The position numbers and the translations under genes were made by a program. Below are positions 1-62,848 of a stretch of DNA of 64,000 nt, piece by piece (position 1 is the first letter of the stretch; each line of letters starts with the position of its first letter). The stretch comes from a virus. Below the pieces are notes generated by a model. It was not told the origin of the DNA, did not search any database, and saw only the letters and a program-made list of their open reading frames with translations. The stretch covers positions 1 through 64,000 of the IMG/VR virus record IMGVR_UViG_3300025162_000041; one strand, given 5' to 3'.

Positions 1-200
1 CTTCTGGTCTATTCACAAAACGATGCTTGATTGATTTTACTGGATAGAAGCAATTATTTTCTACTATCCAAACCATGTATCAAAGAACTGTGATATGTAT
101 AACAGGAATTAAGAAGAATGTCAACAGAAATTATTAATTATATTTCGTTGCTCCTCCCCGAGGCTAAAGCCATCGGGGTTTCCGCAACGAAAGGAAAAAT
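1..200 (-). mobile_element. Non-autonomous IS200/IS605-family element (left part, cut by window edge); second copy of the 42843-43239 element
   Basis: About 90% identical by eye to the reverse complement of 42843-43043. Left-end hairpin at 156-178, guide GAAA (minus) and target TCAT, the reverse complement of ATGA at 201-204. Confidence 0.85.
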
Positions 201-2926: not shown

Positions 2927-4102
2927 CTAAACTATTTTCCGCAATCCCGACCCGATGGGGCGGGTTAGGAAAATCATTGACAATAAAACAGAAACATGAT
3001 AGGATACAAAATGGTTCAATACCAAGTTAAACTAAAACTCAGCAAGACGCAGGAGAAACGACTCAATGATTGGTTGTGGAACTTGACTGGTGTTTGGAAC
3101 TGGGCTTGCCGGAAGATTGAACTAAACGCTAAAGACAAAATCTACTTCTCTCCGAAGAATTTTCAAAACTTGTTGGCAAACCACTCTAAAATCCTTGATA
3201 TTCCGTCTCATACTATCCAAGGAACATTGCTAACTGCACATGATGCTTGGTCAAGATGCTTAAAAAGATTGGCGAAGAAACCAAAACTCAAAGGAAAACG
3301 AAGACCGCTTAACTCTATTCCTTTTCCAGACCCCGTTAAGATTGTCAGCAATAAAGTAAGTATTCCCAATGTTGGATGGATTAACTTCCACAAACAATGG
3401 ATTCCGGAAGGAAAAATCAAGTGTGGACGAATCTGCAAGCGAGCATCTGGCTGGTATATGTGCTTATTCGTTGATGCCAAGCCAAAAGAGATACCAAAGG
3501 TTGGCAATGGAAAAGTAGGTATAGACCCCGGGTTCAAAGACCTGTTGACTTTTGATAATGGCGAGAAAATAACTCACCCGAAAGAGTTGAGATGGTCCGA
3601 AAAACGATTGGCTCAATCTCAACGGGGGAATCGGAAGAGGTTGTCTGCTCGTCTTAACGAGAGAATTAAGAACCGAAGGAAAGACCGGAATCACAAACTC
3701 TCAAGGAAGTTGGTTGCTGAGAACGATACTATTTGTTTTCTCCGAGACAATCATCGGGTGATTTCTAAACGATTTGGAAAGTCCGTAGCCGATTCTGCTC
3801 ATGGACAACTCAGGAAAATGTTGGAATATAAGTGCCTTACCGGCGATACGAAACTCATTTTCCCAGAGAACAGAAATTCCACAAGGACTTGCAGTCATTG
3901 TGGGGCCTTAACTGGTCCTACGGGCTTAGCAGGACTTAAGGTACGGGAATGGGATTGCGGAGTATGTGGTACTCATCACGACCGGGATACAAACTCGGCA
4001 CGTAACGCACTTATTCTTGGGGTCGGACGGACCCACGAGGTTGTCTATGCTTAATCACATGGATAAGTCAGGAATCCCAGAGCGATGCTCTGGGAGCGTC
4101 AA
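2927..4102 (+). mobile_element. IS200/IS605-family (IS1341-type, tnpB only) element 1
   Basis: Target TGAA 2923-2926; left guide CAAT 2942-2945 and hairpin 2946-2964; right guide GAAT 4072-4075, hairpin CCCAGAGCGATGCTCTGGG 4076-4094, terminal TCAA 4099-4102. Confidence 0.9.
2996..4054 (+). CDS. tnpB: TnpB RNA-guided endonuclease (likely start ATG 3011)
   Basis: N-terminal HTH, RuvC-I GIDPG, Zn ribbon CSHC/CGVC, RuvC-III DRDTNSARN. TTGACA(2977)-N17-TAGGAT promoter favours the 3011 start. Confidence 0.92.
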   Translation: MIGYKMVQYQVKLKLSKTQEKRLNDWLWNLTGVWNWACRKIELNAKDKIYFSPKNFQNLLANHSKILDIPSHTIQGTLLTAHDAWSRCLKRLAKKPKLKGKRRPLNSIPFPDPVKIVSNKVSIPNVGWINFHKQWIPEGKIKCGRICKRASGWYMCLFVDAKPKEIPKVGNGKVGIDPGFKDLLTFDNGEKITHPKELRWSEKRLAQSQRGNRKRLSARLNERIKNRRKDRNHKLSRKLVAENDTICFLRDNHRVISKRFGKSVADSAHGQLRKMLEYKCLTGDTKLIFPENRNSTRTCSHCGALTGPTGLAGLKVREWDCGVCGTHHDRDTNSARNALILGVGRTHEVVYA

Positions 4103-9656: not shown

Positions 9657-9860
9657 ATTTCGTGTCGCCTGAAAACCCCTATCCCTTTAGGGAACGAGAA
9701 CGATAATGGAGTTGAAAGACCGAGTTTTCACTTGTTCTTGTGGTCTATCTTTAGACCGAGACATAAACGCTGCGAGAAACATTTTGAGATTGGGAAGACA
9801 ATCTCTTGCTTGTAATAAAGCATAGAAGCCCCGACCCTTTAGGGTCGTGGGAGTTTTCAC
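9657..9860 (+). mobile_element. Internally deleted IS605 element keeping the tnpB 3' tip and omegaRNA/right end
   Basis: Target TTAT 9653-9656, guide AAAA 9672-9675. Half left hairpin fused to a frame reading GTRTIMELKDRVFTCSCGLSLDRDINAARNILRLG. Right guide GAAG 9825, hairpin 9829-9851, terminal TCAC 9857-9860. Confidence 0.88.
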
Positions 9861-19030: not shown

Positions 19031-20294
19031 ATTCTTGGAGTCAGAAAGCCCCTTCGGCTTTAGCCAAGGGGATGAATGACGACCATATTAAGGAAATAAA
19101 AATAAAATGACATTTTCCTTAAAGTCAATGATATGTATGTCCGTGAATGTAAAACGAAACTACAAGTTTAGGTTGTCTCCCAAAGGAGGAACGCTGACCC
19201 GTCTTGAACAGACGAGAGAAACTTGTCGCTACGTCTATAACCAACTCCTTGAGAAGCGAAACGACCACTATGAGAAAACCAAGAAGACACTCACTCATTT
19301 TGATTGTTGTAAAGTGATTAAGGAGATGGAACTGAAAACTCCAGTCCATTCCCAAGTCCTCCAAAACGTATCTGCACGACTTGACCTTGCCTATCTTGGG
19401 TTCTTCCGTAGGTTGAAGGATAAGACAGGTAAAGCAGGATTTCCACGATTTAAGTCCTATGACCGATATGACTCATTCACTTTTCCACAAACGGGTTTTA
19501 AGTTGACTCCAAAGAAACTTTGGATGTCCAAGATTGGTGATGTTCGGATTAACCTCCACCGCAAAATGGAAGGTAAGATTAAGACCCTGACCATTAAACG
19601 TGAAGGCAATCATTGGTATGCTATTTTCTCATGTGAGGTTGAGATTAAACCAGAAGTTAAGAAGTGGAAACGAGCAGTTGGTATTGACGTTGGATGTATT
19701 GACTTTGCCACTTGTTCCGATGGGACGATCATTTCTCATCCTCATTTCTTACGACAATCTTCCGAGAAACTTTCCAAAATCCAAGGTAAGTATTCCAAAC
19801 TAAAAAAGAAACCAAGGGATGATAAGCAGAAGATTAAGACCAAGAGAGCATTGGTATCGGTTCATTGCAAAATAAAGAACCAACGAAAAGATTTCCTACA
19901 CAAGTTGAGCAAGAAGTTCGTAAGCGAATACTCTCATATTTGCGTGGAGGATATTAAACCAAGTCAGATGTTGAATGACAACTGGCGAAGTTTGAATAAG
20001 AGCATATTGGACTCAGGATGGACTACGTTTAGACAAATGCTACATAGCAAAGCGGTAGATGCTGGTTGTGAAGTGAATGACGTAAATCCTGCCTATACGA
20101 GTCAGATGTGTTCTGGTTGTGGCAACATTGAGATAAAGAAACTCTCTGATAGGCAACACAAATGTAATCTTTGTGGATTGGACATTGGAAGAGATTTGAA
20201 TGCTGCACGAAACATTTTAAGAGTCGGAATGGACTCTTTTGCTTCCAAAAGAAGCATGGAAGCCCCTATCCCTTTAGGGTAGGGGAGCATTCAC
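19031..20294 (+). mobile_element. IS200/IS605-family (tnpB only) element 2
   Basis: Target TTAC 19027-19030 with guide AAAG 19045-19048 (same pair as IS608), hairpin 19049-19071; right guide GAAG 20259, hairpin 20263-20285, terminal TCAC 20291-20294. Confidence 0.92.
19107..20282 (+). CDS. tnpB: TnpB RNA-guided endonuclease
   Basis: YKFRL HTH; intact RuvC triad GIDVG / ICVEDI / RDLNAARN; Zn ribbon CSGC...CNLC. Confidence 0.95.
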   Translation: MTFSLKSMICMSVNVKRNYKFRLSPKGGTLTRLEQTRETCRYVYNQLLEKRNDHYEKTKKTLTHFDCCKVIKEMELKTPVHSQVLQNVSARLDLAYLGFFRRLKDKTGKAGFPRFKSYDRYDSFTFPQTGFKLTPKKLWMSKIGDVRINLHRKMEGKIKTLTIKREGNHWYAIFSCEVEIKPEVKKWKRAVGIDVGCIDFATCSDGTIISHPHFLRQSSEKLSKIQGKYSKLKKKPRDDKQKIKTKRALVSVHCKIKNQRKDFLHKLSKKFVSEYSHICVEDIKPSQMLNDNWRSLNKSILDSGWTTFRQMLHSKAVDAGCEVNDVNPAYTSQMCSGCGNIEIKKLSDRQHKCNLCGLDIGRDLNAARNILRVGMDSFASKRSMEAPIPLG

Positions 20295-34572: not shown

Positions 34573-36273
34573 ATGGATATAGAAAATTTAAAGCAATGGA
34601 TAGCAAATAATTTACAATATTCGCGTGGATTAATTTGTAAAAAGTGTAAGCGAGAATGGTTTGAGAAATATGGATTTATAGATCAGTGGGATCGGATTCA
34701 TGTTGCTACACAATTTCTAGATAATCTTTTGCCGACCTTTCCTCAGAGGGTATGGCACATTGTAAATGACAGTCTAACAGTTAAATGCAACAATCCTTCC
34801 TGTCAAAATACGCCACAATTTTGGTCATTTAATGTTGGATATCTTCGGACATGTTCTAATTCGTGTGCTCAATATGACCCCAATACTATTAACAAAATAC
34901 AGGCAACTAATCTCAAAAAATATGGGTGCAAATATGGATTGGAGAACAGAGATATTATATTGAAGCGGGAAGTTACTATGGGTAAAAAATATGGAGTAGA
35001 GAATATTTCTCAAGTCGATGGAATATCCGAAAAAAAACAAGAGACTTGTTTAAAGAATTATGGATCGAAATGGTTTTTAGAAAGAAGTGATTTAATTAAA
35101 AAATGCATTAATAATAAATATGGAGTGGATAATGTACAACAAGTAACGGAAATAGCAGATAAATCTTCCTGTACAAAAATGGATAATTTTTATGAGTTAT
35201 TATTGGAATCGACTCGGTTTGAAGGGAAGGTAACTCCATCTTTTTCGAAAGAAGAATACAATGGAACTTGCAGAAAATATAAATTTATATGTAATGTATG
35301 TAAATTGGAATTTGAGTATGAGTTGCGATGGGACAGGATTCCTCGGTGTCCAGTATGTTATAAAAGTTCATCAGTCTTTGAAAAAGATGTAAGCGAATAT
35401 GTAAAATCAATTTTGCCAACCGCAAGTGTTATAGAGAATACAAAGTCAGTGTTAGCAAACAATTATGAATTGGATATCTATATTCCGTCTAAAAATATTG
35501 CTATAGAATGTAACGGATTATTTTGGCATGGAGAGGTTGGTGGGAACAAGAATAAGAATTATCATTTGTTAAAAACAATAGAATGTGAATCTAAAGGAAT
35601 ACATTTAATTCATATATTTGAAGACGAATGGAACAATAAAAATCTTATTATAAAAGAAAAATTGAAATATATAATTGGAAATATTAAACCCATCTCGGTT
35701 TATGCGCGAAAATGTAAAATTATAAATGTATTTATTTCTGATAAAAAAGAATTTCTAAACCAAAATCATATACAGGGAAATGATACTTCCAAAATACATA
35801 TAGGATTGGAATGGGAAAGCAAGTTGGTATCGGTAATGACATTTTCGTCTAAGCGATGTTTTATTGGATATAAGAATAAAACTAAGAACGATGAAGAATT
35901 TGAATTGTGTAGATATACATCATTGAGTGGACATAGTGTAATAGGAGGGGCGTCAAAATTACTATCATATTTTATAAAAACGTATTGTCCCAAGAAAATA
36001 ATATCATATGCCGATAGAAGATGGACATATAGCAAAGACAATTTATATGAGAAAATAGGATTCGAGAAGGTATCGGACGGGACTCCTAATTATTGGTATT
36101 TCGGACGGGATGGAAATTATAGACGACTTCATAGATTTGGATTTAGAAAGAATGTTCTTTCCAAGAGGTTGGCGATATTTGATTCTAATCTGACAGAATG
36201 GGAAAATATGCAATTGAATGGATGGGATAGAATATGGGATTGCGGAAGTTTAAAATACGAAATGGCTGTTTAG
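34573..36273 (+). CDS. Hef-like putative homing endonuclease, paralog 1
   Basis: KKYG repeats, Zn ribbon, ELDIYIP..IAIECNGLFWH, IHIFEDEW, ISYADRRW, EWENMQLNGWDRIWDCG. Confidence 0.75.
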   Translation: MDIENLKQWIANNLQYSRGLICKKCKREWFEKYGFIDQWDRIHVATQFLDNLLPTFPQRVWHIVNDSLTVKCNNPSCQNTPQFWSFNVGYLRTCSNSCAQYDPNTINKIQATNLKKYGCKYGLENRDIILKREVTMGKKYGVENISQVDGISEKKQETCLKNYGSKWFLERSDLIKKCINNKYGVDNVQQVTEIADKSSCTKMDNFYELLLESTRFEGKVTPSFSKEEYNGTCRKYKFICNVCKLEFEYELRWDRIPRCPVCYKSSSVFEKDVSEYVKSILPTASVIENTKSVLANNYELDIYIPSKNIAIECNGLFWHGEVGGNKNKNYHLLKTIECESKGIHLIHIFEDEWNNKNLIIKEKLKYIIGNIKPISVYARKCKIINVFISDKKEFLNQNHIQGNDTSKIHIGLEWESKLVSVMTFSSKRCFIGYKNKTKNDEEFELCRYTSLSGHSVIGGASKLLSYFIKTYCPKKIISYADRRWTYSKDNLYEKIGFEKVSDGTPNYWYFGRDGNYRRLHRFGFRKNVLSKRLAIFDSNLTEWENMQLNGWDRIWDCGSLKYEMAV

Positions 36274-36284
36274 AGCATATTTAT

Positions 36285-36573
36285 CTTTTAGGGAGCAGAA
36301 AACTCCTTGGTCTTCAGCCAAGGAGATGAATGCGACCCACAAATATAATTAGCTGACTTCTTCTGTGTCATAATATATATTGGTAATATGATTGAATAAG
36401 AGACGATAACCAAGTCTCACAACACAATCGAAAAATAATTTTCTGGTTAAGAAACCAGATAACGGTCGGAACGACCGTATAAGCCGTCTGTCTTGACATA
36501 AGACTTTGTTAGAAATAACGAAGCAGTTGATTGGGTCGGAAACACCTACGTCTTTAGCGTAGGGGTAGTTCAT
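36285..36573 (+). mobile_element. ORF-less IS605 derivative (ends plus putative omegaRNA), 289 bp
   Basis: Target TTAT 36281-36284, guide AAAA 36299-36302, hairpin 36303-36325; internal GGTCGGAACGACC stem; right guide GAAA 36539, hairpin, terminal TCAT 36570-36573. Confidence 0.85.
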
Positions 36574-36580
36574 ATCCATA

Positions 36581-37408
36581 ATGAATAATATCAAAACATT
36601 TCTGAAACAATGCATTGCAGAAGTATTGGTTGAGCCAGCAAAGCAATTCAATCGTCTGCAAGGAAAGAAAATGCGTTCACTGATAAAGCAGTGTATCGCA
36701 GAAGTTATAATTGAGCCTGTTTCACGTAAGATGAAGGTATATGGAAATCCTAAGCGTCTTCAAATGGCTCACTTAATTAAAGAATGCGTAATGGAGGTTT
36801 TGAAAGAAAACCTATTGTCCGAAATTTTCGATCCTCAATCTCAAGGTCCAAATATGGTGGAAGAAAATCCGTATCCAGCGATGAATGCCAAGATGCGGAT
36901 GATGGACGAGCAAGAAAATAAGCCCAAAGAAGATGCGTGGACAAGATATGAAAAAGGATATGATGCTGGTCAAGTCCATAAGAGAAGTGGTATAAAGCCA
37001 GAAGGTCCGATGGATTCCGTAACTTCGGTTGGTTATCATGATGCACTCAAAGGAAAGGCTAAATCTTCTCCCGAAGTTGTTCGAAAGACTATTAAAGAAA
37101 CCGAACCCCAGGGGCGTTACTCCAAACAAATAGGGGTAACTCCATCTCAGTCTTCTAGCGATACAAATATTGCGGAATATGAAAACTATCTCAAGGAAGC
37201 AAGTCGTACACAATCTACCAGTATTCATTGGACTTGTCCGCATTGTGGAAAATTGACTAATATTGATGTTGAAATTGAATCTTCCTCTGATTATATTGCT
37301 TGTGCCGACTGTGAGCATTGCGGCAAAGAAATCAATAGTCCAAAGTTAGATCAACAAATTTATAAAACCGTTGTCGATCATTGTTCTAGTCAACAACCCC
37401 TACCCTAA
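36581..37408 (+). CDS. Hypothetical protein with triple N-terminal repeat and C-terminal Zn ribbon
   Basis: LKQCIAEV / IKQCIAEV / IKECVMEV; CPHC...CEHC. Confidence 0.6.
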   Translation: MNNIKTFLKQCIAEVLVEPAKQFNRLQGKKMRSLIKQCIAEVIIEPVSRKMKVYGNPKRLQMAHLIKECVMEVLKENLLSEIFDPQSQGPNMVEENPYPAMNAKMRMMDEQENKPKEDAWTRYEKGYDAGQVHKRSGIKPEGPMDSVTSVGYHDALKGKAKSSPEVVRKTIKETEPQGRYSKQIGVTPSQSSSDTNIAEYENYLKEASRTQSTSIHWTCPHCGKLTNIDVEIESSSDYIACADCEHCGKEINSPKLDQQIYKTVVDHCSSQQPLP

Positions 37409-37423
37409 AGGGATAGGGGCTTG
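37389..37423 (-). mobile_element. Solo IS605 right end
   Basis: Minus strand CAAG-CCCCTATCCCTTTAGGGTAGGGG-TTGT-TGAC; hairpin identical to 20263-20285. Confidence 0.75.
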
Positions 37424-39508: not shown

Positions 39509-41137
39509 CTATGGATTAGTCCATTCATACTTCAAACTTCCACAGTCCCATATTCTATCCCATCCATTCAACTGCATATTTTCCCATTCAGTAAGTATCG
39601 GGTCAAATGTTTGTAATTTTTTGGAAAGTTCTGTTTTTCTGAATGCAAATCTATGAAATCGTTTTTGATAATTGTGTTTATTTATATACCAATAATTTGG
39701 AACTCCATCCGATACCTTTTGAAACCCAATTTTTTCATAGAGATTTCCTTTGCTCCATCGTCGGTCCGCATATGATACAATTTTGCGGGGGCTGTATTTT
39801 TTGATAAAATATGATAAGAGTTTTCCAGCTATTCCAACAACATTTTTTGATGTGGCAAATCGTATAAGTTCATATGTGTCATTGAAATGAGATTTTTTAT
39901 ATCCCATAATTTTTCTTAATTTTCCAAAAGTCATTACCGAAACTAATTCGGAATTATAATATGCTCCGATATGAATGGATGATTTATCGGAGCCTTGAAT
40001 ATGATACATATTTAGAAATTGACATCCGTCGGGAAATGATATTTCTCGCAATGTACATTTTCTAGCATAAATCGAATTTTCTATAGATATATTGAGAATA
40101 TGAGATAATTTTCTTTTAACTATCTCCTTTTTATTTATCCATTCGTCTTCAAATATTTGAATTAGATAAATCCCTCTATCTTTACATTTTTCCGTTTTAT
40201 TTAAATGATATAATTTCGATTTTCCGCCAGCAATTTCGGAATGATAATAGTTCCCATTTAGTTCTATTGCTATTTTTTCCTTGGGCAAATAAATATCTAT
40301 CTCAAATTTATTATCAAATTCTTTCCTGCAATTAAATCTTATAATTCCATTGTATATCTTTTGTATGAATTCTTTTAATTCATTTTCTATTTGAGAACGA
40401 GGCATTGGATTACATTTATAGCACTGAACACCTATGTAATTATTCTCAAATTCGTTTCCGCATTTTGTACATTTAAACTGATACAATTTCCCTTTGTTGA
40501 ATCCTATGAATTCAGTTTGAGAAAATTGAGGAATAATTGATGTATTTTCAAGAAGTTTATCGTATATTTTTTTACACCAAGTCATAGATGTTTTTCGGGA
40601 AATTTCGGGCAACATCATTGGGTGTATTACTCCGTATTTCTTTACATTATTTTGATGGGTGTTATTTTTTACTGTTTCGGACGATTTACTATATTCCAAT
40701 CCATATTTTATCAGATTGGTTTGTTTTATTTTTTCAATGATTGATGGCAGTCGAAAAACATTATCTACGCCGTATTTGTCCAAACATCCTTGTTTAGATC
40801 TCGTTTGTATCTCGGAAGATGACATTGCTTCGATAGTTCCAAATTTCTGAAGACATGTTTTTTGAACCCGCCTTCTTATTTCAGGAGATAATCCAGCGTT
40901 GGTTACCCCATAGGTTTTCATTGTTGAATTTTCCCGTTTTTTTACAATACATTTTTTGCCACAACACGTGTCAATTTCGGACTCGGAATTTCGACGAGCC
41001 ATGAATATTTTCTCCGAGGATTTTTCAAATATAATGCCACAGATGTCACACTTTGCTATAATAATTCGGCTGGAAAATTTCCCTGTGGAATTCGGGTCGA
41101 TGTTGTACTTTCGAATTGTTTCTTCGTGTAAAATCAT
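39509..41137 (-). CDS. Hef-like putative homing endonuclease, paralog 2
   Basis: Same architecture and C-terminus as 34573-36273; own TTGACA promoter near 41190. Confidence 0.75.
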   Translation of the reverse strand: MILHEETIRKYNIDPNSTGKFSSRIIIAKCDICGIIFEKSSEKIFMARRNSESEIDTCCGKKCIVKKRENSTMKTYGVTNAGLSPEIRRRVQKTCLQKFGTIEAMSSSEIQTRSKQGCLDKYGVDNVFRLPSIIEKIKQTNLIKYGLEYSKSSETVKNNTHQNNVKKYGVIHPMMLPEISRKTSMTWCKKIYDKLLENTSIIPQFSQTEFIGFNKGKLYQFKCTKCGNEFENNYIGVQCYKCNPMPRSQIENELKEFIQKIYNGIIRFNCRKEFDNKFEIDIYLPKEKIAIELNGNYYHSEIAGGKSKLYHLNKTEKCKDRGIYLIQIFEDEWINKKEIVKRKLSHILNISIENSIYARKCTLREISFPDGCQFLNMYHIQGSDKSSIHIGAYYNSELVSVMTFGKLRKIMGYKKSHFNDTYELIRFATSKNVVGIAGKLLSYFIKKYSPRKIVSYADRRWSKGNLYEKIGFQKVSDGVPNYWYINKHNYQKRFHRFAFRKTELSKKLQTFDPILTEWENMQLNGWDRIWDCGSLKYEWTNP

Positions 41138-41757: not shown

Positions 41758-41790
41758 ATTATCTTATAAATATCGGTGAAATAAGGATTG

Positions 41791-42114: not shown

Positions 42115-42146
42115 ACTTATAAATAGTTAAGTTTCCGACTACTCAT

Positions 42147-42842
42147 TTACTTCTCTTCTCCATCTTCGGCTCCTTCTGGTTGGCCTTCTTCTTCCGCCGA
42201 TTCATATTTAGAAAATGCGGTCCAGCAAAATTGATTTCCTTCTTTTACTTTCTTAATTACAGTAGTAGTGTTTTTTCCGAAGTCATCGGTCATTTCATAT
42301 TTCAATAAGAACTTATCACTACTTGTAGGTTTCTCATGCGAAAGTCCAAGTTTAGCTAGAAACCTAATTAAAATATTAGCTCCTTCAGTTTCATTAATAA
42401 AGGTAATGCTTTTTTGAATACGAATTTTGTCATCTATAGTTGTCTCATCATCCTCGGATGGTTCGTTGGCAGCAGTATTGGATGGAGTTGATTGCATTGG
42501 CTGAGCTGGTTGCATTGGCTGGGCTGTTTGGGCGGGAGGATATGATGCTAACTCGGTTACTAATGCCTGCCGTTCCTTCGGTGTCATTTCAATACCACGA
42601 CATTGATTTACATAGCTATCAAAATCTGCGTTGGTATCAAATGTCTTAGCAATTACGTTTGGTTGTGGACGAGAATCTCCGCCTGTAAATTCATTTTCGG
42701 ATACTGATAGATTTCCGCTTGCTGGAATATCAGTTTCTCCACCAATACATCCTTCTTTGAATTTTCGTAAGCCAACAAGAAGCTTACGCTTCTGATCTTC
42801 ACTCATTTGTTCTTTTAATGCTCTCAGCCGCTTGATGTTCAT
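42147..42842 (-). CDS. Hypothetical protein
   Basis: 231 aa; start codon abuts the 397-bp element. Confidence 0.6.
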   Translation of the reverse strand: MNIKRLRALKEQMSEDQKRKLLVGLRKFKEGCIGGETDIPASGNLSVSENEFTGGDSRPQPNVIAKTFDTNADFDSYVNQCRGIEMTPKERQALVTELASYPPAQTAQPMQPAQPMQSTPSNTAANEPSEDDETTIDDKIRIQKSITFINETEGANILIRFLAKLGLSHEKPTSSDKFLLKYEMTDDFGKNTTTVIKKVKEGNQFCWTAFSKYESAEEEGQPEGAEDGEEK

Positions 42843-43239
42843 GTTTTTCCTTTCGTTGCGGAAACCCCTATCCCTTTAGGGTAGGGGATGAGCAACGAAA
42901 TATAATTGATAATTTCTGTTGACATGTTTCTTAGTTCCTGTTATATATATCACAGTTCTTTGGTATATAGTTTGGATAGCAGAAAATAATTGCTTCTATC
43001 CAGTAAAATCAATCAAGCATCGTTTTTGTGAATAGACCAGAAGGCACTCCGCTTGCGGAGGAACCGTTATGTAGGGTCTTTGACTCACAATCAACATCCT
43101 CCTCGTTGCCCGTTAAGGGCAAGCTGGAAGGCAGGCCACGGTCAATTGGCCAATCGTCTGTAAATCTTTCTTGAATTATGTTAAGCATAAGCATTAGAGT
43201 CTGGCAAGCCCCGACCCTTCAGGGTCGCGGGTAGTTGAC
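42843..43239 (+). mobile_element. ORF-less IS605 derivative, 397 bp (promoter plus putative omegaRNA)
   Basis: Target TCAT 42839-42842, guide GAAA 42861, hairpin 42865-42887, TTGACA(42919)-N17-TATATA, several internal stems, right guide CAAG 43205, terminal TGAC 43236-43239. Confidence 0.88.
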
Positions 43240-43470
43240 AATCACTCTATAAGTATGACTGTCTAACTGCGGAATGCACATACAGACAGGAATTGCTCTT
43301 CGTGTATATAAATATCTGCGAATTTTTGTATCATTTTAATTTTCGATACTATTTATATTCTGTAATGCCGCAATCTTTTGCCGCTAATTGACCTACCAAG
43401 GTCTTCGTTTTAATAACCTTCATTAAAGCTTCAATAGCTTTAGATTCCAAAAATAAGGAAAAATATAATT

Positions 43471-45051
43471 ATGGACAGTAATCTTTTCAAAGAAGCTATT
43501 GCCGATGCCAAGGCAGTTCGCCAAACAGCACTCGCTAACGCAAAGGTAGCACTCGAAGAAGCATTTAACGATAGATACAAAATGATGTTCGCCGAGAAAC
43601 TCAAAGAAGAAGCAGAGCAAGAAGAAACTGCGATGCCAGAAGAAGAAAACGGAATGCAACCGCAAGGCGCATCTTCCGTGTCGGAAACAGAAGTGGATGA
43701 CCTCATCCGTGAACTGGAAGCCGAAGTAGGCGAAGAACCACATCCCGAACCCGAAGGCGATGAAGCGGGAGCAGTCCCACCACCGCCCGCAGGAGCAGGA
43801 GCACCGCCAATGGGTGGAGCACCAATGGGCGGAGCACCAATGGGTGAACCTCCAGTAGGCGGAGCACCAGAAGAAATGCCACCAATGGGTGGAGCACCGA
43901 CAGTGTGTCCTCCAGGGACAATTCCATGTCCGGGCGCTCCGGGTGGACAGCCAATCCCACAATCAGGTGGAGCAGGCGCACCTCCAATGGGCGGAGCACC
44001 GCCAATGGGTGGAGCAGGCGCACCGCCAATGGGTGGAGCACCACCGATGGGTGGAGCAGGCGCACCGCCAATGGGTGGAGCGCCAGAAGGTCAAGAACCG
44101 CCTCCATCAGACGTTCCCCCACCATCGGGAGAAGAAGAAGACGAGGAATTCGATTTGAATGAACTTTTGGAAAGCCTCAAAGCCGAAATCGGGGAGGAAG
44201 ACGAAGAGGAAGAAGAAGAAGAAGAGGAAGAGGGCAAGAAACTTGATGAACAGACGAAGCTTACTTCATCTGGTATCGGCAGTGGCAAAGCAGGCGGGTC
44301 TCCAAATAAGAAACCATCCTCAGCCGCAAGTTCTACCTCGAAAATTGAATCCGCTGCCAATGATGACGAAGGTTATCCAACAACGGACCAAGCGAAAGTC
44401 GTGGCTAGAGAAGCAACCCAAGCGAGTCGGCCAAATCAAGCGAAGAACGCAACGAAGACCAATCTGTCTACCCCATCAATGGGCGGAAGTAATGGTTCAG
44501 GTGGACAGTCCGATATCGGATATCCAAAGACCGACCAAGCCAAGGTAACATCCAGGGAAGCTTCTGGCGCAACTCGCCCTAACCAAGCGAAGAACGCAAC
44601 GAAGACAAATCTTTCCACTCCTGGTGGAATGTTGCAAGAGAATTCGTTTCTCAAAAAACAACTTAACGAAGCGGAAGATGTAATTCGCTACGTCAAAGGA
44701 CAACTTAATGAGGTTAACTTGTTGAATGCTAAACTGCTTTACACGAACAAGCTGTTTAAACAATACAACATGAACAACGAACACAAAATGCGTATCGTTG
44801 AAATGTTTGACCTCGCCAAAAATGTTCGTGAAGTAAAGTTGACTTACGCCAACATTACCGAGTCATTGAATTTCGGTGGAACTGAAGTGAGAAGGAAGGT
44901 TCAAACTTCCTCAACAGTTCAGTCTATTACCGAAGGTCTCGCATCAGGCGCAGTCGCATCAACACGGCCCAAGGCTATCATAACCGAAGGCAAGTTCGCC
45001 AGCAGAATGAAACAACTCGCAGGCATTCGTAGCGAACCAACAAAGAAATAA
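43471..45051 (+). CDS. Prohead scaffold protein (gp22-like)
   Basis: Directly upstream of the capsid gene; acidic/coiled-coil; EAIADAKAVR, LNEVNLLNAKLLY, RMKQLAGI. Confidence 0.8.
   Translation: MDSNLFKEAIADAKAVRQTALANAKVALEEAFNDRYKMMFAEKLKEEAEQEETAMPEEENGMQPQGASSVSETEVDDLIRELEAEVGEEPHPEPEGDEAGAVPPPPAGAGAPPMGGAPMGGAPMGEPPVGGAPEEMPPMGGAPTVCPPGTIPCPGAPGGQPIPQSGGAGAPPMGGAPPMGGAGAPPMGGAPPMGGAGAPPMGGAPEGQEPPPSDVPPPSGEEEDEEFDLNELLESLKAEIGEEDEEEEEEEEEEGKKLDEQTKLTSSGIGSGKAGGSPNKKPSSAASSTSKIESAANDDEGYPTTDQAKVVAREATQASRPNQAKNATKTNLSTPSMGGSNGSGGQSDIGYPKTDQAKVTSREASGATRPNQAKNATKTNLSTPGGMLQENSFLKKQLNEAEDVIRYVKGQLNEVNLLNAKLLYTNKLFKQYNMNNEHKMRIVEMFDLAKNVREVKLTYANITESLNFGGTEVRRKVQTSSTVQSITEGLASGAVASTRPKAIITEGKFASRMKQLAGIRSEPTKK
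43795..44085 (+). repeat. Coding tandem repeat (G)APPMGG
   Basis: Repeated GCACCGCCAATGGGTGGA-like units. Confidence 0.85.
44371..44622 (+). repeat. 35-aa internal duplication in scaffold
   Basis: GYPxTDQAKVxxREAxxAxRPNQAKNATKTNLSTP at about 44371 and 44518. Confidence 0.85.
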
Positions 45052-45084: not shown

Positions 45085-46815
45085 ATGGAAAACGTAAAAG
45101 AACTGTTGACAAATGCGTTGAATCCTCAAGCACGCTTGATGGCCGAAACCCGTGGACTTGTGTCCAAATGGGAAAAGACCGGGCTGCTCGAAGGACTTCG
45201 TAACGACATTGAAAAATCAAATATGTCGGTGTTGCTTGAAAACCAAGCAAAACAACTGATCGAAGAATCATCCGTGACCGGAACTCAGAGCAATTCTGAG
45301 CAATGGGCAGGTGTGGCACTTCCATTGGTGCGCCGTGTATTCGCCGAAATCGCTGCTAAAGAATTCGTATCCGTCCAACCTATGAACCTTCCCTCGGGAC
45401 TGGTGTTCTATCTGGATTTCAAATACGGAACTAACTCCAGTGTATTTAATGCTCAGCCATCTAGCCAAGATTCACTCTTCGGTGGTGTTTCGGGAAGTGA
45501 TGACCTCTATAGCTCATGGAAGCTTGGATCAACCAATGCTCCTGTCGGTGGTCTCTATGGCCCAGGTCGCTATGCCTATACCATCAATGATACTGCAAGT
45601 GTTGTCTCTATTGCGGTCGATACTGCGTCTATTGCAGATATTAACTTCGATACTGGAAATAGCAACGACCCCGTTGCTGCAAGTATCTCTAGTTCCCTTG
45701 CCGCTGGTAATCTTTACACATTGACTACTCGGGGATTGACTGTAACGGCTTCTGCGGGTGGTTCCTACCCCGACCTGAACGCTGTTCGTTCATTCATGCC
45801 TATTAGTGCTCAAATCATTACTTGGTTCCCTGGCTTTTCTAAGTTCAATGGTCCAGAAGCCGTGTTCGTAGTTAGTGCATCCAAGACTGCTGCACCGTAT
45901 CTTTCGCTTATAGGTACCTCTTCTATTAACTATAGCTTGCAACCGAAAGACACTAGCCGTGGTGACTTCGAAGATCGCCTTGGTAAGTGGCAAGGCACTG
46001 ATTCTCTCGGAACAAGCACAGGCTTGAATCGTGATATCGGTATCCCAGAGGTGAACCTTGAATTGCGCTCGGAGCCAATTGTGGCTAAGACCCGCAAACT
46101 CAAAGCAGTGTGGACTCCAGAACTGGCACAAGACCTTAATGCCTACCACTCGGTAGATGCTGAGGCCGAATTGACCGCTCTGTTGTCTGAGTATGTCTCA
46201 ATGGAAATTGACCTCGAAATCCTTGACATGCTTATTAATAACGCCCCAGCAATCAATAAAGAACGCTGGTCGGCACGTCTCAACCGTGAAATCATCAAGA
46301 CGGGACTTAACCAGTACCAAATTGTTGATCAAGTAACGGCTGGCGCAGGTGGATATTACACCAAGGCAACTTGGTATCAAACCCTTGGTAACAAGGTCCA
46401 GAAAGTATCCAATAAGATTCACCAGCTCACGCTGCGTGGTGGTGCAAACTTCATGGTCGTTGGACCAGACGTTGCGACAATCCTTGAATCTATCCCAGGA
46501 TTCGTTGTCAATACCGATGGCGATAGCGCCAAGTTCGCAATGGGTGTGAGCCGAGTTGGTTCATTCGCAAGCCGCTTCCAAGTATATAAGAATCCTTATA
46601 TGCAAGAGAACCTTATCCTTATGGGATTCCGTGGAAATAATTTCCTCGAAACTGGAGCTGTGTATAGTCCGTACATCCCACTCATCCAGACGCCTTTGGT
46701 ATATGATCCCGTCAATTTCACACCGAGACGCGGTGTTATGACCCGCTACGCCAAAAAAATCGTTAGACCCGAATTTTATGGTCTAATCTATGTTTCCGAT
46801 ACTAATCAGGTATAA
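45085..46815 (+). CDS. Major capsid protein (gp23-like)
   Basis: LLENQ, LPLVRR, VQPMNLPSGLVFYL, AKTRKLKAVWTPELAQDL, YSPYIPL, FTPRRGVMTRY. Confidence 0.97.
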   Translation: MENVKELLTNALNPQARLMAETRGLVSKWEKTGLLEGLRNDIEKSNMSVLLENQAKQLIEESSVTGTQSNSEQWAGVALPLVRRVFAEIAAKEFVSVQPMNLPSGLVFYLDFKYGTNSSVFNAQPSSQDSLFGGVSGSDDLYSSWKLGSTNAPVGGLYGPGRYAYTINDTASVVSIAVDTASIADINFDTGNSNDPVAASISSSLAAGNLYTLTTRGLTVTASAGGSYPDLNAVRSFMPISAQIITWFPGFSKFNGPEAVFVVSASKTAAPYLSLIGTSSINYSLQPKDTSRGDFEDRLGKWQGTDSLGTSTGLNRDIGIPEVNLELRSEPIVAKTRKLKAVWTPELAQDLNAYHSVDAEAELTALLSEYVSMEIDLEILDMLINNAPAINKERWSARLNREIIKTGLNQYQIVDQVTAGAGGYYTKATWYQTLGNKVQKVSNKIHQLTLRGGANFMVVGPDVATILESIPGFVVNTDGDSAKFAMGVSRVGSFASRFQVYKNPYMQENLILMGFRGNNFLETGAVYSPYIPLIQTPLVYDPVNFTPRRGVMTRYAKKIVRPEFYGLIYVSDTNQV

Positions 46816-61063: not shown

Positions 61064-62848
61064 TTGAAAGGTAATATGCGAAAACCCAATACGGATGAAC
61101 TTATTAGTATTATATATCAGAATAAATGTCATTACAGGTCAATAATCAAATCTAAGTTTCCAGAATTACATCTGTTTATAGAAACTGAATATTATGGGAA
61201 TTCGTTCGGGGAAAAGTTATATAGATGGATACACGAAAACTCGGCGGGGGGTGTGTGTAAAGTTTGTCAATCTTCAACCAGGTTCAAAAGTATTTTTGAT
61301 GGATTCCAAACATATTGCTCATCGAGGTGTTCCAATGGAGATATTATAGTTAAACAACTCAAAGAAGATTCTTATTTGAAGAATTGGGGGGTTAAAAATC
61401 CATCTCAAGCAGAAAAAATTAAAGGGAAGAAAAAACAAACTTGCGAGAAACACTTTGGAGTTGATTGCAATTTGAAATTGGGTTCGTGTAAATTACAAAT
61501 CAAAGAAACAAATCGACAAAAATATGGAGTTGATTATCCTCTTCAAAATCAAAGTATATTAGAAAAACAACAGGATACCAATCTGCAACGATATGGGAAA
61601 CGATCTGTCGGTCAAGTAGAAGAATTTAAAACGAAAGCAATTCAAACAAACCTGAGTAAATTCGGAGTAGAGCATCCGATTCAAAACAAAGAAATACACG
61701 CAAAACTAGAAGAAACAAATCTAAAACGGTTCGGAGTTAGGCATATGGCCCAAAGTGATAAATATAGAATTGAAAGGCGAAGAAGATTTTTTGAAACATT
61801 ATTGCATTCCGATAGGTTAAAATCCAGAGTTACTCCGATGTTTGTCTTAGCGGATTTTATCGACTGTAATACTAAAAATAAGTATGATTTCAAATGCAAT
61901 ACATGTGCAAATGTGTTTCAAGATCATTTGGACAATGGACGAATTCCAAGGTGTTATAAATGTTATCCGCTGCTTTATCAGTCTTTTGCCGAAAGAGAAA
62001 TAGCCGATTTTATACGCAATTCTATAGCCGATAAAATAGTTGAAAACGATAGGTCTGCGCTTGGAAATTTGGAATTGGATATTTATATTCCGTCCAGAAA
62101 TTTGGCAATAGAATTCAACGGATTATATTGGCACAGTGAATTGGGAGGTAATAAAAATAAAGATTATCATCTCAATAAAACTGTAAGATGTCAATCGAAA
62201 GGAATAAGACTTATTCAGATATTTGAAGATGAATGGTTACAAAAACAAGACATAGTAAAAAAACGACTTGCTCATTTGTTGGAACTGGACATGTCCAGAA
62301 TATATGCCAGAAACTGCGTTATTATTCCCATTCCTAACGTTCTTTGTGCCGAGTTCTTAGAGAAAAATCATTTGCAAGGAAAAGATAATTCTACTATAAA
62401 ATTAGGAGCATATTATAATAGCGAATTGGTTTCGCTTATGACATTCGGCAAACATAGATTTTCAAAGAATAAAGATGTTTGGGAAATGTATCGTTTTTGT
62501 TCGTCTAAAAATGTGGTTGGAATAGGAGGAAAATTGTTTAAATATTTTGTGAAAAATTATAATCCCAACCAGGTTATTTCCTATGCCGATAGAAGATGGT
62601 CGTCGAATATTGCGTTTTATGAAAAAATTGGATTTCAATCCGAAGGAATGACTCGGCAAGGTTATTATTATATGGACGACTATCGGAATCGATATTATAG
62701 ATTTAACTTTAGAAAATCAGTATTATCTAAAAAATTAAAAGTATATGATTCTAATTTAACCGAATGGGAGAATATGCAATTAAATGGATACGACCGAATA
62801 TGGGATTGCGGAAATTTGAGATATAAATGGACTCCACATAACTTTTAA
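61064..62848 (+). CDS. Hef-like putative homing endonuclease, paralog 3
   Basis: Same motifs as paralogs 1 and 2; inserted antisense within the neck genes. Confidence 0.75.
   Translation: MKGNMRKPNTDELISIIYQNKCHYRSIIKSKFPELHLFIETEYYGNSFGEKLYRWIHENSAGGVCKVCQSSTRFKSIFDGFQTYCSSRCSNGDIIVKQLKEDSYLKNWGVKNPSQAEKIKGKKKQTCEKHFGVDCNLKLGSCKLQIKETNRQKYGVDYPLQNQSILEKQQDTNLQRYGKRSVGQVEEFKTKAIQTNLSKFGVEHPIQNKEIHAKLEETNLKRFGVRHMAQSDKYRIERRRRFFETLLHSDRLKSRVTPMFVLADFIDCNTKNKYDFKCNTCANVFQDHLDNGRIPRCYKCYPLLYQSFAEREIADFIRNSIADKIVENDRSALGNLELDIYIPSRNLAIEFNGLYWHSELGGNKNKDYHLNKTVRCQSKGIRLIQIFEDEWLQKQDIVKKRLAHLLELDMSRIYARNCVIIPIPNVLCAEFLEKNHLQGKDNSTIKLGAYYNSELVSLMTFGKHRFSKNKDVWEMYRFCSSKNVVGIGGKLFKYFVKNYNPNQVISYADRRWSSNIAFYEKIGFQSEGMTRQGYYYMDDYRNRYYRFNFRKSVLSKKLKVYDSNLTEWENMQLNGYDRIWDCGNLRYKWTPHNF

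What the first reader, a model, noticed from the sequence alone, without database searches (positions are those of the whole stretch)
42839..43260. 397-bp element inserts exactly before an ATG and supplies a replacement ribosome-binding site
Seen: removing 42843-43239 restores a normal minus-strand gene start, ATACTTATA-GAGTGATT-ATG. The target TCAT is the antisense of ATGA, and the element's left end reads AAAGGAAAAAC-ATG on the gene strand. The second copy gives AAAGGAAAAAT-ATG at 190-203. Native genes here use similar AAGGA sites (e.g. the scaffold). Inference: a start-codon-targeting element that offsets its own insertion by donating an RBS and placing a structured ~400-nt leader on the mRNA, while its internal promoter (42919) fires antisense toward the gene's promoter.
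Basis: partly seen in the sequence, partly recalled or inferred. Interest (0 to 1): 0.8.

Follow-up and report, generated by a model that had tools for sequence, protein, structure and literature searches.

The report
Guide-RNA mini-transposon parked at start codon
A 397-base gene-less jumping element of a well-known family sits exactly in front of a phage gene's start codon, mainly because its fixed landing motif is the mirror image of the commonest gene start, and its apparent ribosome-binding site is probably not needed.

Summary
Element 42843-43239 abuts the conserved ATG of gene 42147-42842, and a second copy abuts the ATG at 201.

It is a non-autonomous IS200/IS605 element (PATE). It has left- and right-end hairpins and makes no target duplication. 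It carries the target motif TTCAT, a promoter-like TTGACA-17-TATATA, and a 3' module that aligns and covaries with the guide-RNA (omegaRNA) region at the 3' end of tnpB elements in related phages.

TTCAT is the reverse complement of ATGAA. In seven related phage contigs, 435 of 774 such sites outside gene bodies are called gene starts (0.56). Of 29 distinct TTCAT-flanked left ends, 22 abut an ORF of at least 60 aa (p about 0.02). For this element alone the count is 6 of 8 (p 0.24).

Sister elements whose ends read CCTCCAAAAAT|ATG, with no Shine-Dalgarno motif, sit before ORFs of 64-377 aa. Empty-site homologues also show no such motif, and the complete relative shows no enrichment.

So start-codon abutment looks like a by-product of target choice and selection. 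RBS donation is unproven. PATEs carrying omegaRNAs are already published. Other first-reader notes of this scan flagged the same cassettes.

The parts
42838..42842 (+). Target/transposon-adjacent motif TTCAT. On the minus strand it is ATGAA, the start codon plus AA of gene 42147-42842.
   Evidence: TTCAT precedes the left end at 29 of 29 sites whose left-end foot ends AAA. The 4 sites whose foot ends AAG have TTCAC.
42843..43239 (+). 397-bp non-autonomous IS200/IS605 element (PATE); the top strand is +.
   Evidence: ORFs inside it (61 aa on the minus strand, 48 aa on the plus strand) have no Pfam match.
42843..42853 (+). Outermost 11 nt of the left end, GTTTTTCCTTT.
   Evidence: It is unpaired in the minus-strand fold, just 3' of the left-end hairpin.
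42851..42900 (+). Left-end compound hairpin. The outer stem is TTTCGTTGC/GCAACGAAA. The DNA guide GAAA is at 42861-42864. The inner imperfect palindrome is CCCCTATCCCTTTAGGGTAGGGG at 42865-42887.
   Evidence: Copy 2 has CCCCGATGGCTTTAGCCTCGGGG, with compensatory changes. The left end is 98% identical over 49 nt to the left end next to a Y1 tnpA fragment in G001.
42919..42947 (+). Sigma-70-like promoter candidate, TTGACA-17 nt-TATATA, pointing toward the right end.
   Evidence: TTGACA is the same in all 9 copies that cover it. That is not more than the 88-92% background identity would give. Not listed. Untested.
42974..43001 (+). Hairpin GGATAGCAG...CTTCTATCC inside the conserved 5' module (about 42901-43030) shared by both subfamilies.
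   Evidence: This module has no match outside copies of the element.
43101..43239 (+). omegaRNA-like 3' module. It has stem A (43105-43121) and stem B (GGCCA 43133-43137 with TGGCC 43146-43150). It also has a long-range stem, the right-end guide CAAG (43205-43208), the right-end hairpin (43209-43231) and the end motif TTGAC (43235-43239).
   Evidence: Alignment A1 with 13 tnpB-element 3' ends and 7 ORF-less copies. 98.9% of cells are paired. Covariation is 0.488 vs 0.154 in shuffles, 0 of 500 as high. One frame still reads QATVNWPIVCKS, like the TnpB C-terminus WQATVNSPIVCKSS.
43240..43259 (+). Flank that would be the guide of a read-through omegaRNA. It contains the displaced TATTTATA-like motif (43248-43255, minus strand TACTTATA).
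   Evidence: The geometry follows IS605 TnpB biology (PMC10055086, passages read). Its role as a guide is inferred.
42147..42842 (-). Abutted gene, 231 aa, unknown function, intact.
   Evidence: no Pfam or PHROG match. 186 homologues at E <= 0.001.
1..200 (-). Second copy (left-end half only, cut by the contig start). It abuts the ATG at 201 of ORF 201-1010 (269 aa).
19031..20294 (+). tnpB-bearing IS of another subtype in the same phage (TnpB 19107-20282). Its ends differ: the target reads as TTTAC and the end motif as TTCAC.
9657..9860 (+). Internally deleted IS that keeps a left-end hairpin, the last ~40 codons of tnpB and a right end.
   Evidence: TNB domain fragment at 9712-9783.

Best explanation

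Shown:
- It has subterminal hairpins at both ends.
- It makes no target duplication.
- It inserts 3' of TTCAT.
- Its left- and right-end guide tetranucleotides (GAAA, CAAG) match TCAT and TGAC.
- Its left end is nearly identical to that of tnpA/tnpB-bearing elements in related phages.
- Its 3' 140 nt is the structural homologue of the guide-RNA (omegaRNA) region at the 3' end of tnpB elements.

Inferred:
- A Y1 TnpA supplied in trans excises and inserts its top strand.
- The internal promoter transcribes an omegaRNA that reads out through the right end.
- A TnpB encoded elsewhere would then cut element-free TTCAT+flank alleles, so the cassette is restored or spread by recombination.

It sits exactly before ATG because TTCAT is the reverse complement of ATGAA. 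17-45% of called genes in these phages start with ATGAA. In genomes that are 82-94% coding, insertions inside genes are lost.

The A-rich end (AAAGGAAAAAC) then becomes the gene's -1 to -11 context. It may help initiation, but an SD is not required in this system.
For: Family features:
- Hairpins and boundaries.
- TTCAT at 29 of 29 AAA-foot left ends and TTCAC at 4 of 4 AAG-foot left ends.
- CAAG and TTGAC invariant in 20 of 20 right ends.
- TAM TTCAT, end motif TTCAC and guide/TAM covariation are described for ISGst elements, with the statement that PATEs 'often encode omegaRNAs' (PMC10055086, passages read).

Parent elements:
- Left end 98% identical over 49 nt to the one beside a Y1 tnpA fragment in G001, and 98% over 48 nt to a tnpB IS in G002.
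- TnpB TNB-domain matches (fragments included) number 3, 15, 11, 1 and 2 in G000-G004.

omegaRNA module:
-.
- G-U pairs (G135-U159 in 20 of 20; U84-G131 in 10 of 20) are valid only on the top strand.

Mobility: 8 distinct left-end junctions with unrelated flanks.

Null for abutment: (435 starts vs 339 intergenic sites). Observed counts.

SD not needed.

Host type: the major capsid protein is closest to those of Microcystis and Flavobacterium phages, at 53% identity.
Against: - No tnpA, and no TnpB of the matching 3'-end type, was found in the 82.9-kb fragment. CheckV rates the fragment 23% complete.
- The only tnpA found (G001) lacks the first 28 model positions.
- No empty allele of this site was recovered, so excision or homing here is not shown.
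- No RNA data exist, so the promoter, the omegaRNA and the mRNA leader are all inferred.
- The family-wide abutment (22 of 29) is somewhat above the crude null (Fisher OR 2.5, p 0.02). Some preference or extra tolerance for start sites is therefore not excluded.
- Gene calls for the null are simple longest-ORF calls.
Confidence: 0.8

Rival explanations
1. The element is adapted to land on start codons and makes up for it by donating a Shine-Dalgarno site (AAGGA, 5 nt before the ATG) at the end of a structured ~400-nt leader.
For: - 5 of the 6 start-abutting copies of this family carry AAAGGAAAA. The two copies that lie 14 and 83 nt upstream of a gene carry GAGAAAA instead.
- The GGA is unpaired next to the left-end hairpin in the minus-strand fold.
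- The insertion removes a TATTTATA-like start-proximal motif from the ATG, so some replacement would be useful.
- G000 shows some AAGGA enrichment upstream of genes: 7 of 58 vs 1.7% in controls, with 2 of the 7 coming from the element itself.
- The gene is intact, and its junction is seen in runs of 2016, 2017 and 2020.
Against: - The GGA/at-start association is 5 of 9 vs 0 of 3 among this left-end type (p = 0.16), and copies are not independent.
- SD-less left ends sit before 13 ORFs of 64-377 aa.
- Empty-site homologues have no SD.
- There is no SD enrichment in G001.
- Native AAGGA spacing is 7-12 nt.
- The likely hosts (Bacteroidota or cyanobacteria, by the nearest phages) are known, from recall, for weak SD use.
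Confidence: 0.2
2. The copy is a domesticated regulator. Its promoter makes an antisense RNA against the gene's new leader, or the leader hairpins control expression of gene 42147-42842.
For: The promoter-like site faces the gene's upstream region. The minus-strand leader folds well (z = -3.7).
Against: The same cassette lies at 8 unrelated sites with different neighbours. The structures are those of transposon ends and omegaRNA and are shared with tnpB elements. The top strand, not the leader strand, carries the G-U pairs.
Confidence: 0.05
3. The repeat is an assembly artefact or a chance similarity.
For: Copy 2 lies at a contig end, and contigs break inside the element.
Against: Full copies with clean, unrelated flanks occur in independent IMG/VR and metagenome contigs. 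The gene/left-end junction is bridged in three runs.
Confidence: 0.01

Closest known systems
PATEs (palindrome-associated transposable elements) of IS200/IS605, e.g. those of Geobacillus stearothermophilus (Meers et al. 2023, PMC10055086, passages read) and Haloquadratum (PMC3119063, search listing only)
   Same: Both are ORF-less and keep the left and right ends of the family. They are mobilised in trans. The paper states that PATEs often encode omegaRNAs that need a TnpB from another element.
   Different: This one lives in a T4-like phage. It has a 130-nt module with its own promoter-like site that has no counterpart in the parent IS. Two subfamilies share that module but carry different omegaRNA modules.
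ISGst5/ISGst2, IS608 and ISDra2 (autonomous or tnpB/iscB-bearing IS200/IS605 elements)
   Same: The target motif is TTCAT, as for ISGst5, and the end motifs are TTCAC/TTGAC-like. The hairpin-plus-guide logic is the same, and the omegaRNA overlaps the 3' end.
   Different: There is no tnpA, tnpB or iscB. Only the last ~12 codons of tnpB survive as a frame remnant.
IStrons (group I intron + IS605; 10.1101/2023.11.20.567912, passages read)
   Same: Both are IS605-family elements that must limit the damage of landing in or at genes.
   Different: IStrons splice themselves out of a sense transcript. This element lies antisense to the gene, has no intron match, and stays in the leader.
Insertion sequences and MITEs that supply outward promoters or alter leaders (e.g. 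Correia elements; recalled, not checked here)
   Same: A small repeat changes the 5' context of the neighbouring gene.
   Different: Here the position is fixed to the base by a pentanucleotide target. The supposed supplied signal is translational and untested.

Membership tests
IS200/IS605 non-autonomous element (PATE) | Subterminal imperfect-palindrome hairpins at both ends, not terminal inverted repeats | tested here: met
   The hairpins are at 42865-42887 and 43209-43231, each with one bulged base. Arms show compensatory changes between copies.
IS200/IS605 non-autonomous element (PATE) | Insertion 3' of a fixed tetra- or pentanucleotide, with no target-site duplication | tested here: met
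   TTCAT lies 5' of all 9 left-end-bearing rows. The sequence after the right end is unrelated to that before the left end.
IS200/IS605 non-autonomous element (PATE) | A DNA guide 5' of each hairpin foot that covaries with the cleavage site | tested here: met
Foot ...GAAA goes with TTCAT in 29 of 29 sites, and foot ...GAAG with TTCAC in 4 of 4. CAAG goes with TTGAC in 20 of 20. Covariation is described in PMC10055086.
IS200/IS605 non-autonomous element (PATE) | Ends shared with tnpA- or tnpB-bearing elements | tested here: met
   The left end is 98% identical over 48-49 nt to elements in G001 and G002. The 3' module aligns with 13 tnpB-element ends.
IS200/IS605 non-autonomous element (PATE) | No transposase or nuclease gene inside | tested here: met
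   Only ORFs of 61 and 48 aa are present, with no Pfam match.
IS200/IS605 non-autonomous element (PATE) | Mobilised by a Y1 TnpA | not testable with these tools
   No tnpA was found in G000 or G002-G004. One N-terminally short tnpA lies in G001.
TnpB omegaRNA | Lies at the 3' end, runs through the right end, and takes its guide from the flank | tested here: inconclusive
   The position and orientation fit. No transcript data exist.
TnpB omegaRNA | Conserved secondary structure shared with tnpB-linked copies | tested here: met
   14 pairs, 98.9% of cells paired, 7 pairs with changes on both sides, and shuffles reach the covariation score 0 of 500 times.
TnpB omegaRNA | A cognate TnpB in the same genome | tested here: not met
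   The two intact TnpB genes of the 82.9-kb fragment (2996-4054, 19107-20282) have other 3' ends. The matching type occurs together with copies of the element in G004. The fragment is about 23% of the genome.
Shine-Dalgarno ribosome-binding site | Purine-rich anti-SD complement 5-10 nt before the start | tested here: met
   AAGGA is followed by 5 nt and then the ATG.
Shine-Dalgarno ribosome-binding site | The genome's genes use such sites | tested here: inconclusive
   G000: AAGGA in 7 of 58 genes vs 1.7% of controls; 2 of the 7 come from the element, and native spacing is 7-12 nt. G001: 1.6% vs 1.4%. G003: 6.2% vs 2.1%.
Shine-Dalgarno ribosome-binding site | Needed for translation of the abutted gene | not testable with these tools
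   Indirect evidence is against it: SD-less ends lie before 13 ORFs, and empty-site homologues are SD-less.

The most novel reading that the evidence does not exclude
In these T4-like freshwater phages, an IS605 lineage programmed by its left-end guide (GAAA) for TTCAT uses gene start codons as safe-harbour and homing sites. Three things would follow:
- The nuclease's adjacent motif is the complement of ATGAA, so a target allele cannot escape by mutating it without losing its start codon.
- The element's outermost bases provide the A-rich (here SD-like) initiation context.
- ORF-less, promoter-driven guide-RNA cassettes let one TnpB elsewhere in the genome drive many such cassettes into element-free phages during co-infection.
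Probability: 0.15. Interest if true: 0.7.

Novelty: new member of a known kind. Interest (0 to 1): 0.35.

Why it matters
It shows how a fixed 5-base target can make a transposon pile up exactly at gene starts in a densely coded virus, with no start-codon sensing. 22 of 29 sites in about 1 Mb of related phage DNA abut an ORF start.

It also adds phage examples of gene-less guide-RNA cassettes that depend on a nuclease encoded elsewhere.

If the end sequence really supports translation, this would be a simple natural design for insertions that do not silence the neighbouring gene.

Tried and rejected
- Rfam: no family at gathering score. At relaxed threshold there was only a 19.9-bit HEARO match (gathering score 83) to the right-end hairpin on the minus strand. 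I read this as the shared IS605 end hairpin, not as an IscB RNA.
- Group I intron or IStron: rejected. There is no match, and the element lies antisense to the gene.
- blastn against 50,697 phage records: no match.
- Scans with motifs of the element found it in only two other IMG/VR contigs. The metagenome scan gave 7 stretches. Six are copies. L019 is a chance match to the pattern, with no BLAST match to the element.
- The stem-B pattern in genome-contig hit one Verrucomicrobiae MAG, inside GC-rich sequence without IS ends. I treated it as chance.
- Empty allele of the 42842 site: the 231-aa protein has no homologue in the six fetched phage records. IMG/VR relatives are too distant to align upstream. 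One (L097) starts ATGAAC, preceded by TAATATTTATACAC.
- Laid contigs listed no joint that skips exactly 42843-43239. The listed 341- and 324-base skips match LE+RE-only mini-elements, not excision here. The right-end junction is not bridged by 31 letters on both sides.
- No RNA holder was listed, so nothing can be said on expression.
- The parent IS's left-end-to-tnpB region does not contain the element's promoter module.
- -35 invariance is not beyond the background identity of the copies, so it is no evidence of function.
- My first hairpin finder missed bulged hairpins and was replaced. My first TAM rule mis-assigned three sites and was corrected.
- Rows dropped: G005 copies identical to G001, the second arm of G003's terminal repeat, and L014/L015 duplicates of G004/G003. 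These were removed by 35-nt flank identity or by not including them. G004 copy a was dropped because its left end is cut off.
- Literature: searches listed no paper that describes IS605-family elements abutting start codons or donating an RBS. Supplements were closed and were not seen.

Full report
**What is there**

The window is bases 1-64000 of an 82,907-base IMG/VR phage contig that CheckV rates 23% complete. Its major capsid protein (45085-46815) is of the T4 gp23 type (PHROG 138). It is closest, at 53% identity, to those of Microcystis phage Mel-JY01 and Flavobacterium phages. Runs that hold the stretch are freshwater or lake metagenomes.

At 42838-43260 the + strand reads ...GATGTTCAT|GTTTTTCCTTTCGTTGCGGAAA-CCCCTATCCCTTTAGGGTAGGGG-...-GGCAAG-CCCCGACCCTTCAGGGTCGCGGG-TAGTTGAC|AATCACTC.... 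On the minus strand, ORF 42147-42842 (231 aa) starts with the ATG at 42842, directly after ...CGAAAGGAAAAAC.

A second copy in the opposite orientation fills 1-200 and abuts the ATG of ORF 201-1010. A third, variant copy lies at 75308-75667, beyond the window.

**Boundaries and the start codon**

I aligned ten copies or part-copies from this contig, two IMG/VR contigs and three metagenome contigs. The 7 with a right end all stop at GTAGTTGAC. All 9 with a left end follow TTCAT. Flanks are unrelated.

The ATG at 42842 is the gene's native start. The search gave 186 homologues at E <= 0.001. Of 15 fetched, 12 begin MNI(K/N)R.... One was called from an internal Met and two carry extensions.

With the element removed, the upstream reads TACTTATA-GAGTGATT-ATG. 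TATTTATA with at most one mismatch, ending 2-12 nt before the ATG, occurs at 10 of 63 called genes, against 3 of 302 internal ATGs. The two genes downstream in the same block are among the 10.

Contigs of three runs from three studies (2016, 2017, 2020) bridge the gene/left-end junction. One of them may be the source sample.

**What it is**

Every defining feature of a non-autonomous IS200/IS605 element that I could test is met:
- Imperfect-palindrome hairpins with one bulged base lie near both ends, with compensatory arm changes between copies.
- There is no target duplication.
- A fixed pentanucleotide lies 5' of the left end.
- The four bases 5' of each hairpin foot covary with the cleavage site. 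Across about 1 Mb of related phage DNA, a foot ending GAAA goes with TTCAT at 29 of 29 distinct left ends. A foot ending GAAG goes with TTCAC at 4 of 4. CAAG goes with TTGAC at 20 of 20 right ends.

Meers et al. describe TTCAT as the TAM of ISGst5, TTCAC as an end motif, and guide/TAM covariation. They also state that PATEs 'often encode omegaRNAs' needing a TnpB in trans (PMC10055086, passages read).

The phage itself carries two intact tnpB genes: 19107-20282 (Pfam OrfB_IS605, Cas12f1-like TNB and HTH) and 2996-4054. It also has a deleted remnant at about 9657-9860.

Related jumbo-phage records have 15 and 11 matches to the TnpB TNB domain, a few of them fragments. One of them (G001, 368 kb, complete) has a Y1 tnpA fragment. 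The adjacent left end there is 98% identical over 49 nt to this element's.

**The 3' module**

The last 140 nt align with the 3' ends of 13 tnpB-bearing or tnpB-derived elements. One frame still reads QATVNWPIVCKS, like the TnpB C-terminus ...WQATVNSPIVCKSS.

The consensus structure has 14 pairs, and 98.9% of cells are paired. Seven pairs show changes on both sides. The covariation score is 0.488, against 0.154 in shuffles, with 0 of 500 shuffles as high. Slid controls fall to 0.1 or less. G-U pairs are valid only on the top strand.

This is where omegaRNA scaffolds lie, so the module is best read as an omegaRNA without its protein gene.

Upstream lies a ~130-nt module with TTGACA-17-TATATA (42919-42947) and a hairpin. 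The two subfamilies share it at 88% identity although their 3' modules differ. It has no counterpart in the parent IS or anywhere else that I searched.

The promoter is only a consensus match. The scan tool did not list it, and its conservation does not exceed background.

**Why it sits before ATG**

TTCAT is the reverse complement of ATGAA. With simple longest-ORF gene calls in seven phage records (82-94% coding), 17-45% of genes start ATGAA. Of the 774 TTCAT/ATGAA sites outside gene bodies, 435 (56%) are called starts.

| Set | Abut an ATG-initiated ORF of at least 60 aa | Test against the null |
|---|---|---|
| This element's family, distinct left-end junctions | 6 of 8 (ORFs of 61-269 aa) | p = 0.24 at p0 = 0.56 |
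| All TTCAT-type left ends | 22 of 29 | binomial p = 0.022; Fisher OR 2.5, p = 0.021; p = 0.15 if the null is 0.65 |

The other two junctions of this family lie 14 and 83 nt upstream of a gene. The four TTCAC-type ends (complement GTGAA) abut no long ORF.

Several abutted ORFs have homologues that align from residue 1 and start ATGAA at an empty site.

It is about what the target motif plus loss of gene-disrupting insertions would give, with at most a modest excess.

**The 'replacement RBS'**

For it:
- AAGGA lies 5 nt before the ATG and is unpaired next to the hairpin.
- It is present in 5 of the 6 start-abutting copies and absent in both non-abutting ones.

Against it:
- That association is not significant (5 of 9 vs 0 of 3 for this left-end type, p = 0.16), and the copies are related.
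- The tnpB-bearing sisters end CCTCCAAAAAT|ATG or similar, with no GGA on the gene strand. They precede 13 ORFs of 64-377 aa.
- Empty-site homologues read ...aaattgggtgt|ATG...gaagaaaaaat|ATG...tgttgatggt|ATG and ...gatacacacat|ATG.
- The complete relative shows no SD enrichment (AGGA 3.9% vs 4.7% in controls).
- In G000 the five native AAGGA sites lie 7-12 nt from the ATG.
- The parent-type end AAGTGAAGATT differs from AAAGGAAAAAT at 4 of 11 positions, and the GG needs only one of these changes.

What all these ends share is an A-rich -1 to -6. That may be all the gene needs. I give the SD role about 0.2.

**What remains open**

- How the abutted gene is transcribed, now that its TATTTATA-like motif is 397 bp away.
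- Whether the cassette RNA is made.
- Which TnpB uses it. The matching type is absent from this 23% fragment but present beside copies in G004.
- Which TnpA moves it.

**Novelty**

ORF-less IS605 elements with omegaRNAs, the TTCAT motif and trans action are published, so this is a new member of a known kind. It has a phage setting, its own promoter-like module and a neat positional consequence.

Searches listed no paper on start-codon abutment or RBS donation by this family. Supplements were not available.

Noticed in passing
window, e.g. 41758-41775, 42115-42130; whole contig: TATTTATA occurs 35 times in the contig, against 14.5 expected from base composition. It clusters 3-7 nt upstream of start codons (6 in G000, 16 at 3-6 nt in G001). 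It could be a late-type promoter giving near-leaderless mRNAs, or an initiation signal.
   Followed up: partly
L082 (G003) about 3252-3319; G004 from about 28246: Roughly 70-bp mini-elements made only of a left-end hairpin and a right-end hairpin. Each abuts an ORF start (71 and 122 aa). Laid contigs show the same mini-element at the orthologous start in another strain.
   Followed up: partly
G001 (368,758 bp, complete) and G002 (303,564 bp): These related jumbo phages have 15 and 11 matches to the TnpB TNB domain (a few are fragments), but only one N-terminally short Y1 tnpA between them.
   Followed up: partly
G001:286956-288007 (L061): An IS derivative with TTCAC-type ends. It carries a 225-aa Cys-rich, HNH-like ORF plus a TnpB C-terminal remnant and a right end.
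   Followed up: no
window 36285-36573 (+); contig 70088-70372 (-): Two further ORF-less cassettes of other subfamilies, whose left ends follow TTTAT rather than TTCAT. They lie in short intergenic gaps: the first is 11 nt after a stop codon, and its right end is 8 nt before the next ATG.
   Followed up: partly
window 34573-36273 (+), 39509-41137 (-), 61076-62848 (+): Three paralogous genes of 540-590 aa share 73-78% identical DNA segments. The one tested matches homing/HNH endonuclease PHROGs (3339, 559).
   Followed up: no
window 43778-44088: The putative scaffold gene (43471-45051) holds a run of imperfect 15-24-nt repeats that encode PPMGGA-type units.
   Followed up: no
window 37389-37423 (-): A solo right end (hairpin + GTTGTTGAC) of the tnpB type whose 3' region matches the element's omegaRNA module. 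No tnpB lies beside it.
   Followed up: partly
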